Made by a program: the position numbers and the translations under genes. This document shows positions 1,638 through 51,954 of a stretch of DNA of 64,000 bases, piece by piece; position 1 is the first letter of the stretch, and each line of letters begins with the position of its first letter. The notes under the pieces are model-generated. The model did no database searches, was not told the origin of the DNA, and worked only from the letters and a program-made list of their open reading frames with translations. The stretch covers positions 16,171 through 80,170 of the forward strand of contig CAJWNO010000002.1 of NCBI GenBank assembly GCA_913044115.1. The letters run 5' to 3'. The stretch comes from an uncultured Gammaproteobacteria bacterium. Lineage in GTDB: Bacteria; Pseudomonadota; Gammaproteobacteria; Magnimaribacterales; TMED112.

Positions 1638-5963
<4,326 letters not shown>

Positions 5964-40016: not shown

Positions 40017-40310
40017 TTAAGATTTCTCTAGGGCGCCCCATTTGCAAGTTTTAAGGCCCGAGGCATCCATAATTACGAATGAATTACCAACAAGATCATC
40101 CGTGAAATATATTTTGTGATAATTTCTTTTAATAGGACATGTTCTCTTCGTTAAGACCGATCCTTCAAAAGCATCACCATTATTTAGCTCAAAAATAATT
40201 GTATTGTTATCAGTGAACAAAATATTTTTTATGTCGGACTTACTAAAATGATGGTCTGCATTTGCTGTAAACCCGACTAACAACAAGGCAGAAATAAATA
40301 GTTTAAACAT
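40017..40310 (-). CDS. Small secreted hypothetical protein (97 aa from ATG at 40310)
   Basis: Signal-peptide-like N-terminus MFKLFISALLLVGFTANA and two Cys. A G-rich SD (GGGGGA) lies 6 nt upstream of this ATG. I recognise no family. Confidence 0.5.
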   Translation of the reverse strand: MFKLFISALLLVGFTANADHHFSKSDIKNILFTDNNTIIFELNNGDAFEGSVLTKRTCPIKRNYHKIYFTDDLVGNSFVIMDASGLKTCKWGALEKS

Positions 40311-49516: not shown

Positions 49517-49558
49517 GACTTATTTATATAAATAATTAATATTTATTTATAAAAACTA

Positions 49559-49586
49559 TTGATATTATAAAATAACTATTTATTAT
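49559..49586 (+). promoter_or_regulatory. Candidate sigma70-type promoter upstream of the GC-rich element
   Basis: TTGATA-16 nt-TATTAT. A predicted start lies near the GG at 49591-49592. The AT-rich context makes chance matches likely. Confidence 0.3.
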
Positions 49587-49591
49587 AGTAG

Positions 49592-49651
49592 GTATTAGTC
49601 AGTCTCTCCTCTCCCCCCATGACTGACAAGCTAGGGGCTTCGGCCCCAAGC
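49592..49651 (+). ncRNA. Candidate structured RNA (two adjacent hairpins); class unknown, strand tentative
   Basis: Hairpin 1 is GTCAGTC (49598-49604) paired with GACTGAC (49621-49627), enclosing the 16-nt loop UCUCCUCUCCCCCCAU. Hairpin 2 (49630-49651) is GCUAGGGGC-UUCG-GCCCCAAGC. The element is a local GC-rich island in an AT-rich 259-nt spacer. Confidence 0.3.
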
Positions 49652-49666
49652 ACTTTGAGAGAAATT

Positions 49667-49750
49667 ATGGATAAATTTGCTGATAACATAGAACTTTTAA
49701 TACTTTTTACGATATTTGCCGTTTTATTGCTTGGCATTTCCTCAGTCTAG
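49667..49750 (+). CDS. Candidate 27-aa hydrophobic small protein
   Basis: I translated it myself: MDKFADNIELLILFTIFAVLLLGISSV, which has one predicted TM helix. It is preceded by GAGAGA 5 nt upstream of the ATG and ends 25 nt before the gpx ATG. Confidence 0.25.
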   Translation: MDKFADNIELLILFTIFAVLLLGISSV

Positions 49751-49775: not shown

Positions 49776-50306
49776 ATGAAAAATTTTTTAATTACATCAC
49801 TGCTCTTTTTTGGTCTGCACGCTTTTAGTTGTAATGATCTTTTAGATACAGATGTAAAAATTCTTAATGAAAAAGAATATAAGAATTTGTGCGAGTACAG
49901 CGATCACACAATACTAGTTGTAAATACTGCAAGCAAATGTGGTTTCACATATCAGTATGAACAATTGGAAGCATTGCAAAGAAGATTTAAAGACCAAAAA
50001 TTTACTGTATTAGGGTTCCCTTCAAGAAATTTCATGGGCCAAGAGTATAGTGACGAAGAAAAAGTAAGTGAATTTTGTAAATCAACATTTGACGTCTCAT
50101 TTCCACTCTTTTCTATTACAAATGTAAAAAATTCTACAAATCACCCTTTCTATAAAAAGCTATACAAACAAACTAGAGAGAGGCCATCTTGGAATTTTCA
50201 TAAATATCTAATAACTTCTACTGGAGAAATTAAAAGTTTTTCACACAGAATAGATCCAGAAGATGCACAGATCGTTAATGCCATTCAAGAATCAATTAAT
50301 CTGTAA
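49776..50306 (+). CDS. Glutathione peroxidase (Cys-type, secreted/periplasmic)
   Basis: Signal peptide. Motifs NTASKCGFT (Cys encoded by TGT, not TGA), LGFPSRNFMGQE and WNFHKYLI. I moved the start to the ATG at 49776. Confidence 0.9.
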   Translation: MKNFLITSLLFFGLHAFSCNDLLDTDVKILNEKEYKNLCEYSDHTILVVNTASKCGFTYQYEQLEALQRRFKDQKFTVLGFPSRNFMGQEYSDEEKVSEFCKSTFDVSFPLFSITNVKNSTNHPFYKKLYKQTRERPSWNFHKYLITSTGEIKSFSHRIDPEDAQIVNAIQESINL

Positions 50307-50944
50307 CCTGAATCGCTGCCAACCACCACTGTCGTAGGACTATCTACAGAGAAAATACCAACATCAACTACACCGTTAATAGAAAGAACTTCATGTTCAA
50401 TTTTGAGAGGGTCTTCTATCATAAAGTTATGGATATCATAAAGGTGGTTGCCATTATCGCTTAAACCATCTCTTTTAATAATCTTATTGGAGTATTGCGC
50501 AAGAGATGAAATTGCTTCTTCAGACTCCTCAGATTCAATTTCTACTGGTAGAGGAAATTTCCCCAAGGTATTTACTAATTTTTCATCGTCGACTATACAA
50601 ATAAACCTTTGTGCTTGTTTGGCTAGTTTCTTTTCATTAGTGTGAGCGCCCCCGCCGCCTTTAATTAGATTAAGATTATCATCTACCTCATCTGCACCAT
50701 CTATATACACATCTAGCAAATTATTGGGCTTATATTCTGATACCTGAAAACCTAATTTAAGCAGTAGTTCACTGGTTCTATCTGAGCTTGAATACAGTGA
50801 TTTGATTTTTTCTCCTAGTAACGGTAAAAAATTTTCAGTAAAGCAATCAGTTGTGCTGCCAGTCCCTATCCCAACGCTCAGAGGACCATTTAACTGTTTT
50901 AAAATTTCAAATGCACCAGCTGCCGCATTGTTCTTTTTAGACAT
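50285..50944 (-). CDS. rpiA: Ribose-5-phosphate isomerase A
   Basis: GIGTGST, DGADEVD and KGGGGAHTNEK motifs. Confidence 0.92.
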   Translation of the reverse strand: MSKKNNAAAGAFEILKQLNGPLSVGIGTGSTTDCFTENFLPLLGEKIKSLYSSSDRTSELLLKLGFQVSEYKPNNLLDVYIDGADEVDDNLNLIKGGGGAHTNEKKLAKQAQRFICIVDDEKLVNTLGKFPLPVEIESEESEEAISSLAQYSNKIIKRDGLSDNGNHLYDIHNFMIEDPLKIEHEVLSINGVVDVGIFSVDSPTTVVVGSDSGYRLIDS

Positions 50945-51482
50945 AAACTCCTTTGTCAGTAACTACTTTATTTAATCTTACATCATGCAATGATTGAAAA
51001 TGCCTATTAGTCTTTAAGAAATCATAACTCAAGCCAATTAAGAGAGGACGATCGTCCTTTTCTCTAAAGCAGGAGAACGTTTTATCGTAAAAGCCACCAC
51101 CATACCCAACTCTAAATAGTTCGTCATTGAATGCTATAAGAGGGACAAGAAATATATCAATCTCATTTAAGGGTAATGACTTTGAGTCAAGGGGTTCTTT
51201 TATACCATACTGGTTAGTTCTAAAATTTTTTGAGTGCTTATAAAAGACTAATTTTTCTCCCTTTATTTTTGGATAGTAATATTCTTTATCGTCTTTGATT
51301 TTGATAATGACTTCATTATTGATTGGATAGTAACAGCCAATTTTGGTAGCTTGCATATATTCATCTTGCTTAATTAAATTTTCATTTATAGCTGTAGATA
51401 AAGAGATTACGCTTTCGGCACAAAGATTATCTCTAAGTTGCTTAAATTCTTTTCTGATTTTAATTTTAGACATCTGAACCAT
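50937..51482 (-). CDS. ygfA: 5-formyltetrahydrofolate cyclo-ligase
   Basis: GYGGGFYDK motif. Lies downstream of 6S RNA as in E. coli. The start is the ATG at 51482 or 51473, and both lie inside the 6S 3' arm. Confidence 0.8.
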   Translation of the reverse strand: MVQMSKIKIRKEFKQLRDNLCAESVISLSTAINENLIKQDEYMQATKIGCYYPINNEVIIKIKDDKEYYYPKIKGEKLVFYKHSKNFRTNQYGIKEPLDSKSLPLNEIDIFLVPLIAFNDELFRVGYGGGFYDKTFSCFREKDDRPLLIGLSYDFLKTNRHFQSLHDVRLNKVVTDKGVYV

Positions 51483-51637
51483 TGCTTTCAGTCACCCTGA
51501 ACCCTAAGGTCAGGTGGGCAACTCTTTTACCTAGTAAGGCCTCCTTTTTTAAGTAACGCACAGCTAAATAAAATCTGTTTCCCTAAATTTATATTATCGG
51601 TTCTAAAGTAAATTCTGAAAACCGATGATTCAGACAC
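51471..51637 (-). ncRNA. ssrS: 6S RNA (ends approximate)
   Basis: Lies in the zapA-ygfA spacer. The minus-strand segment CACCUGACCUUAGGGUUCAGGGUGACUGAAAGC matches E. coli 6S CACCUUGAACCAAGGGUUCAAGGGUUACAGCC. CCGAUAAUAUAAA matches CCGAUAUUUCAUA. AGGCCUUAC matches AAGCCUUAA. A long closing stem forms between 5' GUCUGAAUCAU..UUUCAG and 3' CUGAAAGCAAUGGUUCAGAU. Confidence 0.8.
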
Positions 51638-51641
51638 TTTA

Positions 51642-51669: not shown

Positions 51670-51954
51670 CTATTGATTAAGAAATATTTCTACTTTTTTT
51701 ATAAGCTCTGATAGCTGTTCATCTGACTCGGTATTTTCCTCAGTCTCCTTTGTTTTCAGCTTCTCATTTTCAATTGCTAACTGCAGAGCAGAATAAACTA
51801 TTGCATCATCAAGTTGCTCTTCTGTATGTTCAATATTCTCAACAAGCTCTATTATCTTTTTTTCAGCTTTTTTAAATGGGACATAATCATTAAAGGGAAT
51901 CATAAAAGAAAACTTTCTTTCTTTAATTAGCAGCTCCACTCTTTGCTCATTCAT
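51670..51954 (-). CDS. zapA: Cell division protein ZapA
   Basis: 94 aa. The N-terminal pattern V-L-I--R-F and the coiled-coil C-terminus resemble E. coli ZapA. It sits directly upstream of 6S RNA. Confidence 0.6.
   Translation of the reverse strand: MNEQRVELLIKERKFSFMIPFNDYVPFKKAEKKIIELVENIEHTEEQLDDAIVYSALQLAIENEKLKTKETEENTESDEQLSELIKKVEIFLNQ

What the first reader, a model, noticed from the sequence alone, without database searches (positions are those of the whole stretch)
49592..49651. GC-rich two-hairpin RNA element of unknown class in the largest unexplained spacer
The 259-nt ldt-gpx spacer is the longest unaccounted stretch in a genome that otherwise leaves almost no spacer. After a promoter-like TTGATA-16-TATTAT come two adjacent hairpins. 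The first has a 7-bp stem (GUCAGUC/GACUGAC) presenting a 16-nt pyrimidine loop, UCUCCUCUCCCCCCAU. The second is a 9-position stem with one A-A mismatch, capped by a UUCG tetraloop. UUCG loops and local GC enrichment in AT-rich DNA are typical of selected RNA structure. No U-tract follows, so it is not a standard terminator. The C-rich loop resembles an anti-SD sequence. It could pair with the GAGAGA ahead of the downstream 27-codon ORF (in cis) or with G-rich SDs such as UGGGGGA of the orphan gene at 40310 (in trans). I could not match it to 4.5S, tmRNA, RNase P or any riboswitch consensus that I remember.
Basis: seen in the sequence. Interest (0 to 1): 0.55.

Follow-up and report, generated by a model that had tools for sequence, protein, structure and literature searches.

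The report
Conserved SAR86 leader RNA before gpx
The two hairpins are a real, previously undescribed structured RNA conserved across the abundant uncultured marine SAR86 bacteria; it sits between a promoter and a tiny membrane-peptide gene plus glutathione peroxidase, and displays an invariant C/U-rich loop that probably base-pairs with G-rich RNA.

Summary
Hairpin 1 (49598-49627) and hairpin 2 (49630-49651) exist as described, follow a TTGATA-16-TATTAT promoter, occur once in the window and match no Rfam family.

The window is SAR86. In 20 related loci the same module recurs:
- promoter;
- hairpin 1, with a 14-23 nt loop that always contains CUCUCCCCC;
- a GC-rich hairpin 2;
- a 27-31 aa membrane-peptide gene;
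- gpx.

In the window's own group of lineages the 30-nt hairpin 1 is identical, although gpx fourfold-degenerate sites are saturated (about 40% identity). A more distant group has different but still complementary stems in both hairpins, which is real covariation.

In most relatives hairpin 2 carries a U6-U9 tract and is therefore an intrinsic terminator. The window has lost most of that tract. Only 11-27 nt separate hairpin 2 from the peptide start codon, so the element is the 5' leader of the peptide-gpx operon.

Best reading (confidence about 0.45): a leader that yields a roughly 60-nt RNA by premature termination, whose exposed C-rich loop acts as a pairing seed. This resembles CyaR, RsaE/RoxS and CcsR in mechanism but not in ancestry.

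No target was found.

The parts
49546..49564 (+). Conserved A/T-rich upstream block plus the -35 hexamer (TTATAAAAACTATTGATA; TTGATA = 49559-49564)
   Evidence: Nearly invariant in the canonical lineages and in clade C; L010 is the exception. The promoter scan finds it. The extended motif AAAAACTATTGATA, allowing 2 mismatches, is over-represented in the window (10 sites against 3.2 expected), so it looks like the general strong-promoter consensus of this genome.
49581..49586 (+). -10 hexamer TATTAT. The inferred transcription start is about 49592-49594.
   Evidence: TA(T/A)TAT is conserved at this position in relatives, while the segment between the -10 and hairpin 1 is variable, as expected around a transcription start. 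The start position is inferred, not mapped.
49598..49627 (+). Hairpin 1: 7-bp stem GUCAGUC/GACUGAC and a 16-nt loop (49605-49620). The family-wide core CUCUCCCCC lies at 49609-49617.
   Evidence: The hairpin is identical in all 10 canonical lineages, apart from the C-run length (5-7), the last 1-2 loop bases and one A->G change in the 3' arm of L017 that keeps the pair as G-U. Stems are replaced by UCAGCAA/UUGCUGA, ACCAACA/UGUUGGU or GUCAGC/GCUGAC in clade C with the loop core kept. The probability that the core is unpaired is 0.75-1.0.
49630..49651 (+). Hairpin 2: GCUAGGGGC-UUCG-GCCCCAAGC. It is the terminator hairpin in relatives.
   Evidence: The core GGGGC-UUCG-GCCCC is invariant in the canonical lineages and the outer pairs vary, for example A-A becomes A-U in L010. 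In clade C it is replaced by GGAGGGC/GCCCUCC-type stems with other loops.
49652..49658 (+). Degenerate U-tract (ACUUUGA). The match to covariance model R1 ends at 49658.
   Evidence: Relatives have U4-5 (L001-L003), U6 (L012, L021) or U7-9 (clade B) at this position. The R1 match is 49596-49658, 80.7 bits.
49657..49662 (+). GAGAGA Shine-Dalgarno of the small ORF
   Evidence: It is present only in the window's closest relatives.
49667..49750 (+). Unannotated gene for a 27-aa single-helix membrane peptide, MDKFADNIELLILFTIFAVLLLGISSV
   Evidence: 10-13 synonymous against 0-1 non-synonymous codon changes in the four closest lineages (L001, L002, L003, L006), and homologues in every lineage. No Pfam or NCBIfam match. 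In clade B its stop codon overlaps the gpx start codon.
49776..50306 (+). gpx (glutathione peroxidase, PF00255) with a lipoprotein-type signal peptide; last gene of the unit

Best explanation
The two hairpins are the promoter-proximal part of the 5' leader of a two-gene operon (a 27-aa membrane peptide, then a lipoprotein glutathione peroxidase). The arrangement is conserved across the SAR86 order.

**Proposed mechanism**
1. Transcription starts about 5 nt before hairpin 1, from a strong sigma-70-type promoter.
2. Hairpin 2 is an intrinsic terminator of lineage-dependent strength: strong in clade B and in L021, weakened in this window.
3. The promoter therefore has two outputs. One is a short RNA of about 60 nt made of hairpin 1 plus the terminator hairpin. 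The other is the read-through operon mRNA.
4. Hairpin 1 holds the absolutely conserved CUCUCCCCC in a fully single-stranded apical loop. This loop acts as a seed that base-pairs with G-rich, Shine-Dalgarno-like sequences (complement GGGGGAGAG) in other RNAs and represses their translation. C-rich loops work this way in CyaR, RsaE/RoxS and CcsR.

**Shown**
- The structure, its conservation and covariation, and its strand.
- The promoter motif.
- The terminator in relatives.
- Physical linkage to the peptide-gpx unit.
- The absence of space for a second promoter.

**Inferred**
- The transcription start.
- That a discrete short RNA accumulates.
- That the loop acts by base pairing, and that it acts in trans.
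- The link to oxidative stress, which rests only on gpx being the neighbouring gene.
For: **Conservation far above neutral**
- Hairpin 1 is identical in lineages whose Gpx proteins are 58-76% identical.
- Their gpx fourfold-degenerate sites are only about 40% identical, which is saturation.

**Covariation**
- There are four different hairpin 1 stems, all complementary, and hairpin 2 stems are also exchanged.
- On alignment A4, 7 pairs have changes on both sides and 88.4% of cells are paired, against 22-43% when the partners are slid by 1-3 columns. No shuffle out of 500 reaches the observed covariation score.

**A conserved unpaired core flanked by covarying stems, the usual signature of a pairing seed**
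- CUCUCCCCC is present in all lineages.
- Its unpaired probability is 0.75-1.0.

**Strand**
- UUCG changes to UCCG, both UNCG loops.
- U-tracts follow hairpin 2 on the + strand only.
- Fold z-scores are -3.7 to -5.1 on the + strand in relatives. In the window the minus strand gives -0.02.

**Terminator**
- L013 is scored as an intrinsic terminator, TGGGGCTTCGGCCCCA + CTTTTTTTGT.
- U6-U9 tracts are present in L016, L017, L018, L020, L024 and L021.

**Linkage to the downstream unit, not the upstream gene**
- In clade C a fadB-like gene on the opposite strand separates ldt from the element, yet promoter, hairpins, peptide ORF and gpx stay together.
- Only 11-27 nt separate hairpin 2 from the peptide start codon.
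- The peptide stop codon overlaps the gpx start codon in clade B.

**Copy number**
- There is one copy per locus in 169 kb searched with covariance model R1.

**Functional analogues in the literature**
- The C-rich apical loop of CyaR sequesters the ompX SD (PMC8862304).
- The C-rich regions of RsaE/RoxS pair with G-rich SDs (PMC4409812).
- CcsR hairpin loops carry the CCUCCUCCC anti-SD motif. These RNAs are stress-induced, raise the glutathione pool, and derive from the 5' or 3' UTR of a small-protein gene (PMC8034643).
Against: - No target was identified.
- Start regions of the 68 crude genes in the window are not enriched for complementarity to the loop (5.9% beyond the background 5th percentile).
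- Sites matching GGGGGAGAG with at most 1 mismatch occur at chance frequency (5 against 3.9 expected).
- The two strongest nearby candidates, inside ldt and upstream of the ZapA-like gene, are not conserved in orthologues.
- No transcript data were available, so neither the short RNA nor its ends are demonstrated.
- In the window itself the U-tract is only UUU, so little short RNA may be made here.
- A terminator placed between the only promoter and the operon is equally the hallmark of a purely cis-acting attenuator.
- The stem of hairpin 1 is invariant throughout the canonical lineages, while clade C stems vary freely at similar divergence. A loop-only seed model does not explain this; it hints at a sequence-specific partner such as a protein or a longer duplex.
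Confidence: 0.45

Rival explanations
1. It is a purely cis-acting transcription attenuator. Hairpin 2 terminates most transcripts before the peptide-gpx operon. An unknown factor (a protein, small molecule or RNA) recognises the invariant hairpin 1 and sets the level of read-through, so that gpx responds to, for example, redox stress. The short RNA is only a by-product.
For: - A strong terminator lies directly between the only available promoter and the first ORF. In clade B the AUG is 11-12 nt after the hairpin.
- The element is strictly linked to the operon even where the upstream gene changes.
- The whole of hairpin 1, stem included, is invariant in the canonical lineages, as expected for a sequence-specific binding site.
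- There is a single copy per locus.
Against: - No competitive antiterminator structure exists. The minimum-energy and centroid folds are always the two hairpins.
- The only complementarity to the terminator is the loop C-run against the GGGG of the 5' arm of hairpin 2. With hairpin 1 closed, this would be a pseudoknot whose linker of 1-2 nt in clade B cannot span a 7-bp stem (my geometric inference).
- The U-tract is lost or weak in several lineages (the window, L010, L025) that keep hairpin 1 unchanged. Hairpin 1 is therefore selected independently of termination.
- The loop of hairpin 2 and the linker between the hairpins are not conserved between clades.
Confidence: 0.27
2. It is a structural 5' leader without regulatory specificity. 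A hairpin near the 5' end protects the operon mRNA from 5'-end-dependent decay. The pyrimidine-rich loop serves as a ribosomal protein S1 or ribosome standby site, helping translation of a peptide ORF that often lacks an SD.
For: - Hairpin 1 begins about 0-6 nt after the inferred transcription start.
- The peptide ORF has no recognisable SD in L010, clade B, L021 and L025.
- The loop is single-stranded and pyrimidine-rich.
Against: Neither stabiliser hairpins nor S1 sites need a defined sequence. That cannot explain 30 invariant nucleotides across saturated divergence, or a 9-nt core kept across the order.
Confidence: 0.1
3. One reading: the C/U-rich loop pairs with the GAGAGA Shine-Dalgarno of the downstream 27-codon ORF and masks it.
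For: GAGAGA (49657-49662) is complementary to CUCUC in the loop. It is present in the window and in L001, L002, L003 and L006.
Against: - Lineages with an identical loop lack any purine-rich SD there (L010 and clade B). So do L021 and L025.
- The best cis duplexes are -0.9 to -5.6 kcal/mol in the window, L006, L010, L012, L021 and L025. Clade B gives stronger values (-9.9 to -12.5 kcal/mol), but at sites 92-136 nt upstream of the gpx start rather than at an SD, and no site keeps its position between lineages.
Confidence: 0.05
4. It is a DNA-level element. The inverted repeat GTCAGTC...GACTGAC is an operator for a dimeric regulator, or a recombination site, overlapping the start of transcription.
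For: It is a perfect 7-bp inverted repeat, invariant in the canonical lineages, lying just downstream of the promoter.
Against: - The spacing between the half-sites varies from 14 to 17 bp among close relatives (C-run of 5-7, loss of A), which a dimeric operator would not tolerate.
- In clade C the half-sites change in a base-pair-preserving way while the 'spacer' core stays conserved. That is the opposite of what an operator would show.
- The + strand-specific features (UNCG loop, U-tract) point to RNA.
Confidence: 0.03

Closest known systems
CcsR / 'cuckoo' sRNAs (Rfam ar14 group) of Alphaproteobacteria
   Same: - Short hairpins present a C/U-rich anti-SD-like motif in the loop.
- They are encoded in the 5' or 3' UTR of a small-protein gene and co-transcribed with it.
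- They are linked to oxidative and other stress and to the glutathione pool (PMC8034643).
   Different: - The motif here is CUCUCCCCC, not CCUCCUCCC, and it is present in only one hairpin. The other hairpin is a UUCG-capped terminator.
- There is a single copy rather than tandem repeats.
- The neighbouring ORF is a 27-31 aa transmembrane peptide with no DUF1127 or other Pfam match.
- The host is gammaproteobacterial SAR86.
- No ar14 or other Rfam hit appears even at E<=10.
- It is an analogue, not a member.
CyaR (RyeE) of Enterobacteria
   Same: [quoted passage not shown] It also has its own promoter and an intrinsic terminator.
   Different: - There is no sequence or covariance-model similarity.
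- CyaR is a free-standing gene, not an operon leader.
- From my own knowledge, CyaR depends on CRP and Hfq. Neither could be tested here.
RsaE / RoxS of Firmicutes
   Same: C-rich regions in unpaired positions pair with G-rich SDs, and the RNA is connected to redox homeostasis (PMC4409812).
   Different: - RsaE/RoxS has several C-rich regions, against one here.
- The phylum is different.
- There is no Rfam match.
- It is not a 5' leader.
sRNAs released from 5' UTRs by premature termination, and attenuator or riboswitch leaders
   Same: The layout is promoter, then structured leader, then intrinsic terminator, then ORF, with no second promoter.
   Different: No alternative antiterminator fold and no known aptamer are present. 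Terminator strength varies between lineages while hairpin 1 does not.

Membership tests
Any Rfam 15 family | The covariance-model score reaches the family's gathering threshold | tested here: not met
   There are 0 hits in the whole window at the gathering threshold. At E<=10 on the spacer, and on L021 and L013, only chance-level hits appear, 7-21 bits against gathering scores of 34-208 bits.
CcsR / cuckoo (ar14) | Two or more hairpins, each with CCUCCUCCC in the loop | tested here: not met
   Only hairpin 1 has a C/U-rich loop (UCUCCUCUCCCCCC; the family core is CUCUCCCCC). The loop of hairpin 2 is UUCG, UCU, UUCAU or CCCUAU.
CcsR / cuckoo (ar14) | Adjacent to a DUF1127 small-protein gene (the CIN1 context) | tested here: not met
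   The adjacent small ORFs have no Pfam or NCBIfam hit at E<=10. They are hydrophobic single-helix peptides.
CyaR / RsaE-RoxS | Sequence and structure homology to the family model | tested here: not met
   Neither family appears among the hits at E<=10.
Base-pairing sRNA with a C-rich seed (functional class) | A conserved single-stranded seed, an own promoter and an intrinsic terminator | tested here: met
   The seed core is conserved and unpaired. The promoter is conserved. A terminator is present in most lineages, though degenerate in this window.
Base-pairing sRNA with a C-rich seed (functional class) | Conserved complementary target sites, typically at start regions | tested here: inconclusive
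   There is no enrichment in the 64-kb window, and local candidates are not conserved.
Base-pairing sRNA with a C-rich seed (functional class) | A discrete short transcript accumulates | not testable with these tools
   No transcriptome data were available.
Intrinsic (Rho-independent) terminator | A GC-rich stem-loop followed immediately by a U-tract | tested here: not met
   This verdict applies to the window, where 0 terminator-like sites are scored and the tail is CACUUUG. The feature is met in orthologues: L013 is scored as a terminator, and U6-U9 tracts follow the hairpin in L016, L017, L018, L020, L024 and L021.
Riboswitch / regulated attenuator | Mutually exclusive terminator and antiterminator folds, plus a conserved ligand-binding core | tested here: inconclusive
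   The ensemble is dominated by the two-hairpin fold and no competing helix is conserved. The invariant hairpin 1 could still be a binding site for a protein or a ligand.
Type I toxin-antitoxin | A small hydrophobic toxin ORF plus an antisense or complementary antitoxin RNA, with patchy and mobile distribution | tested here: not met
   The peptide gene is syntenic across the order, under purifying selection, and translationally coupled to gpx in clade B. The loop has no conserved complementarity to the peptide mRNA. Antisense transcription was not testable.

The most novel reading that the evidence does not exclude
Hairpin 1 is the sensor of a new class of attenuator or riboregulator. On this reading, a 30-nt hairpin that is invariant through its stem across saturated divergence binds a specific partner. 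That partner could be a protein, a metabolite or a redox-sensitive factor. It would decide between releasing a roughly 60-nt regulatory RNA and reading through into the peptide-gpx operon. A genome-streamlined, transcription-factor-poor, globally abundant bacterium would thereby gain an RNA-based oxidative-stress switch with both cis and trans outputs.
Probability: 0.15. Interest if true: 0.8.

Novelty: new variant of a known kind. Interest (0 to 1): 0.6.

Why it matters
SAR86 is among the most abundant heterotrophic bacterial groups in the surface ocean (my own knowledge). Four searches of the held paper library found no paper describing this element or any SAR86 small RNA.

- **A concrete, clade-wide RNA.** This is a short, near-invariant motif with covariation support, a defined promoter and terminator, and a defined genomic partner (a new micro-peptide gene plus gpx).
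- **An entry point into regulation.** It offers a way into post-transcriptional regulation and peroxide defence in a streamlined genome.
- **A testable prediction.** G-rich sites matching GGGGGAGAG should be conserved targets.
- **A practical marker.** The invariant 30-mer identifies SAR86 in metagenomes. It also appears to break assemblies.
- **Two other unannotated features nearby.** The analysis also exposes a conserved 27-31 aa membrane peptide and a sub-threshold 6S RNA.

Tried and rejected
- **Rfam.** I scanned the whole window at the gathering threshold, and the spacer plus two divergent orthologues at E<=10. Nothing turned up.
- **Repeats.** A search for further copies in the window with up to 3 mismatches found none. 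A covariance-model search over 169 kb of held sequence found only the one copy per locus. The single extra hit, window 4386-4445 on the minus strand at E=1.9, is chance.
- **Viral contigs.** The canonical 20-mer has no match.
- **43-aa ORF from the ATG at 49619.** Rejected. Indels break the frame in L001-L003, the ATG is ACG in L006, and it is absent in L010.
- **Minus-strand 53-aa ORF 49576-49737.** Rejected. The variable C-run length would shift its frame, and the strand-specific RNA features lie on the + strand.
- **Cis anti-SD pairing.** Rejected as a family feature.
- **Loop to hairpin 2 pseudoknot as an antiterminator.** Rejected for clade B, because the 1-2 nt linker is too short (inference).
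- **Candidate trans sites.** GGGGGAGAT inside ldt (49199) and GGGGG upstream of the ZapA-like gene are both coding-constrained and not conserved.
- **Start-region enrichment in the window.** None found.
- **Metagenome scan with the promoter + loop pattern.** It returned 9 stretches, of which only 3 are true (L025, L028, L030). L026, L027, L029, L031, L032 and L033 are chance matches in unrelated contexts.
- **L004 (Alishewanella) and L005 (Saprospiraceae) gpx loci.** Neither carries the element.
- **L034.** Its contig is too short to reach the spacer.
- **Small peptides against Pfam and NCBIfam.** No hits.
- **Literature.** Searches for SAR86 sRNAs and for the motif strings found nothing relevant.

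Full report
**1.

- TTGATA, a 16-nt spacer, then TATTAT. The promoter scan recovers this site with 10 of 12 matches.
- A 7-bp hairpin, GUCAGUC/GACUGAC, with the 16-nt loop UCUCCUCUCCCCCCAU (49598-49627).
- A second hairpin, GCUAGGGGC-UUCG-GCCCCAAGC, with one A-A mismatch (49630-49651).
- No U-tract.
- GAGAGA, then a 27-codon ORF (49667-49750).

RNAfold returns precisely these two hairpins (-25.4 kcal/mol). On its own the window sequence is only marginally better than shuffles: z = -1.78 on the + strand and -0.02 on the minus strand. The case therefore rests on comparative data. The element is unique in the window. It matches no Rfam family at the gathering threshold or at E<=10.

**2. Where the window comes from, and the orthologous loci**

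The gpx product finds SAR86 genomes at 86-91% identity. A protein search gave a graded series of Gpx homologues from 100% down to 45% identity. Fetching their contigs showed a stable gene order, lnt-ldt-[spacer]-gpx-rpiA, with a 250-325 nt spacer in every case.

**3. Conservation**

In the alignment of twelve lineages, AGUCAGUCUCUCCUCUCCCCC...GACUGAC is identical throughout. The only differences are:
- the length of the C-run (5-7);
- the last one or two loop bases;
- one A->G change that turns a U-A pair into U-G (L017).

The core of hairpin 2, GGGGC-UUCG-GCCCC, is also invariant, while its outer pairs vary.

These same genomes are only 58-76% identical in Gpx protein. At fourfold-degenerate gpx sites they are about 40% identical, which is saturation. 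The flanking ldt 3' end and the gpx 5' end are visibly more variable than the spacer. This is strong purifying selection on non-coding sequence.

**4. A divergent clade supplies the covariation**

A Gpx homologue at 48% identity (L021-L023) carries the same module. So do two metagenome contigs (L025, L030), found with a promoter + loop pattern that excluded the canonical sequence, and L035. The stems, however, are different.

| Lineage | Hairpin 1 stem | Hairpin 2 |
|---|---|---|
| Canonical | GUCAGUC/GACUGAC | GGGGC-UUCG-GCCCC |
| L021 | UCAGCAA/UUGCUGA | UUGGAGGGC-CCCUAU-GCCCUCCAA |
| L025 | ACCAACA/UGUUGGU | GUGGAGGGU-UUCAU-ACCCUCCAC |
| L030 | GUCAGC/GCUGAC | UGGAGGGC-UCU-GCCCUCCA |

- The hairpin 1 loop is 18-21 nt in my 8-column alignment, or 20-23 nt counted from the 6-7 bp stems. 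It still contains CUCUCCCCC.
- My manual structural alignment shows compensatory double changes at four hairpin 1 pairs and at several hairpin 2 pairs.
- On the model-fitted alignment A4, 7 pairs change on both sides and 88.4% of cells are paired. Sliding the partners by 1-3 columns gives 22-43%. None of 500 shuffles reaches the observed score.
- That alignment was fitted to the structure, which favours it. The manual table shows the same picture independently.
- Fold z-scores in relatives are -3.7 to -5.1.

The structure is real and lies on the + strand. UUCG changes to UCCG, both UNCG loops, and U-tracts occur only on the + strand.

**5. Hairpin 2 is a terminator in most lineages**

- In clade B (L013, L016, L017, L018, L020, L024) the hairpin is followed by U6-U9, and the scan calls it an intrinsic terminator.
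- L021 and L012 have U6, and L001-L003 have U4-5.
- The window (UUU), L010 and L025 have little or none.

**6. The element belongs to the downstream unit**

- In clade C a fadB-like gene on the opposite strand lies between ldt and the element. Promoter, hairpins, small ORF and gpx remain contiguous.
- The distance from hairpin 2 to the small-ORF start codon is only 11-27 nt in every lineage. No separate promoter fits there.
- The small ORF is a genuine gene. It shows 10-13 synonymous against 0-1 non-synonymous codon changes in the four closest lineages (L001, L002, L003, L006), and has homologues in all lineages. It has no Pfam or NCBIfam match.
- In clade B its stop codon overlaps the gpx start codon (ATGGCTAA / GTGGTTAA), which indicates translational coupling.

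The hairpins are therefore the 5' leader of a peptide-gpx operon. Covariance model R1 finds exactly one copy per locus in 169 kb. It finds none at the gpx loci of Alishewanella or a Saprospiraceae genome.

**7. How it most likely works**

The pattern is a 9-nt unpaired core conserved across the order, flanked by covarying stems, with its own strong promoter and a terminator. That is the standard signature of a base-pairing seed.

The loop is predicted to be fully accessible, with unpaired probability 0.75-1.0. Its complement, GGGGGAGAG, is SD-like.

I therefore favour a dual-output leader. Premature termination at hairpin 2 releases a roughly 60-nt RNA whose C-rich loop pairs with G-rich sites in trans. 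Read-through gives the operon mRNA.

Three known RNAs use the same principle:
- CyaR (PMC8862304);
- RsaE/RoxS (PMC4409812);
- CcsR/cuckoo (PMC8034643). These also sit in the UTR of a small-protein gene and are tied to oxidative stress and glutathione.

The resemblance is functional only. The defining features of those families were tested and not met.

**8. What weakens this reading**

- I found no target.
- Start regions in the window show no enrichment for loop complementarity.
- Sites matching GGGGGAGAG occur at chance frequency.
- Two local candidates are not conserved.
- Cis pairing with the SD is not conserved.
- No transcript data exist here.
- A terminator between the sole promoter and the operon fits a purely cis-acting attenuator just as well. 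I rank that second, at 0.27.
- Against the attenuator, no antiterminator fold competes with the two hairpins. The loop to hairpin 2 pseudoknot is sterically implausible with the 1-2 nt linker in clade B. Hairpin 1 also stays invariant in lineages that have lost the U-tract.
- A DNA-operator reading is contradicted by the variable half-site spacing (14-17 bp) and by base-pair-preserving changes.

**9. One observation remains unexplained**

Across the canonical lineages the stem of hairpin 1 never covaries, down to 58% Gpx identity. Clade C lineages at 57-60% Gpx identity have largely different stems. Something beyond base pairing constrains the canonical hairpin. A sequence-specific partner would explain it. 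This is the basis for the more novel reading, to which I give 0.15.

**10. Verdict**

This is a real, strongly selected, previously uncatalogued structured RNA family of SAR86. It is the leader of a micro-peptide-gpx operon, with a terminator hairpin and an invariant C-rich loop. It is new as a family but of a known kind: a C-rich-loop riboregulator, or an RNA derived from a 5' UTR. I score its interest at 0.6.

Noticed in passing
window 51467-51639 (-): A probable 6S/SsrS RNA. RF00013 matches over the full model at 31.4 bits (gathering score 46.4), E=6.3e-05. It lies in the 187-nt spacer between the ZapA-like gene (51670-51954) and 5-formyl-THF cyclo-ligase (50937-51482), which is the classical zapA-ssrS-ygfA arrangement. 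The gathering-threshold scan of the window missed it.
   Followed up: partly
window 49667-49750 (+); homologues in L001-L035: An unannotated gene for a 27-31 aa single-helix membrane peptide (MDKFADNIELLILFTIFAVLLLGISSV). It always sits directly upstream of gpx, is under strong purifying selection, and has no Pfam or NCBIfam match. In clade B its stop codon overlaps the gpx start codon.
   Followed up: partly
L013 1805-1909 and the equivalent positions in L016, L018, L020, L024: Clade B has an additional conserved 34-aa ORF (MKSYLENLKYFVRNYPVYAAGFFSCGFIIGEIYL) between the terminator and the peptide homologue. It starts 11-12 nt after the terminator hairpin, at the end of its U-tract, without a recognisable SD.
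   Followed up: no
window 49776-49850 (+): The SAR86 Gpx carries an N-terminal lipoprotein-type signal peptide (…LHAFSC…, with equivalents in all lineages). It is therefore probably an exported, membrane-anchored peroxidase with a Cys rather than a Sec active site.
   Followed up: no
window 49520-49535: A perfect 16-bp all-A/T palindrome, TTATTTATATAAATAA, lies 4 nt after the ldt stop codon. It is conserved only in the window's closest relatives. It could be a weak ldt terminator or part of an UP element.
   Followed up: no
window 49613-49618; L001-L003: The C-run in the hairpin 1 loop varies in length (5, 6 or 7) among very close strains. This could be homopolymer slippage or sequencing noise, and the element evidently tolerates it.
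   Followed up: no
L015 1-10, L019 1-10, L035 1-10: Three independent metagenome contigs begin inside hairpin 1. The invariant 30-mer shared by co-occurring SAR86 strains apparently acts as an assembly breakpoint.
   Followed up: no
window, 10 sites including 6512, 21793, 30430 and 49551: The extended -35 motif AAAAACTATTGATA, allowing 2 mismatches, is over-represented (10 sites against 3.2 expected, with 0 of 100 shuffles reaching 10). It is probably the consensus of strong promoters in this genome.
   Followed up: no
L021 1838-1870: In L021 the 5' arm of the terminator is a perfect SD (GGAGG), followed at the right distance by an AUG in the hairpin loop, which opens a 9-codon ORF (MPSKIFCMI). 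This is not conserved in L025 or L030 and is probably fortuitous.
   Followed up: no
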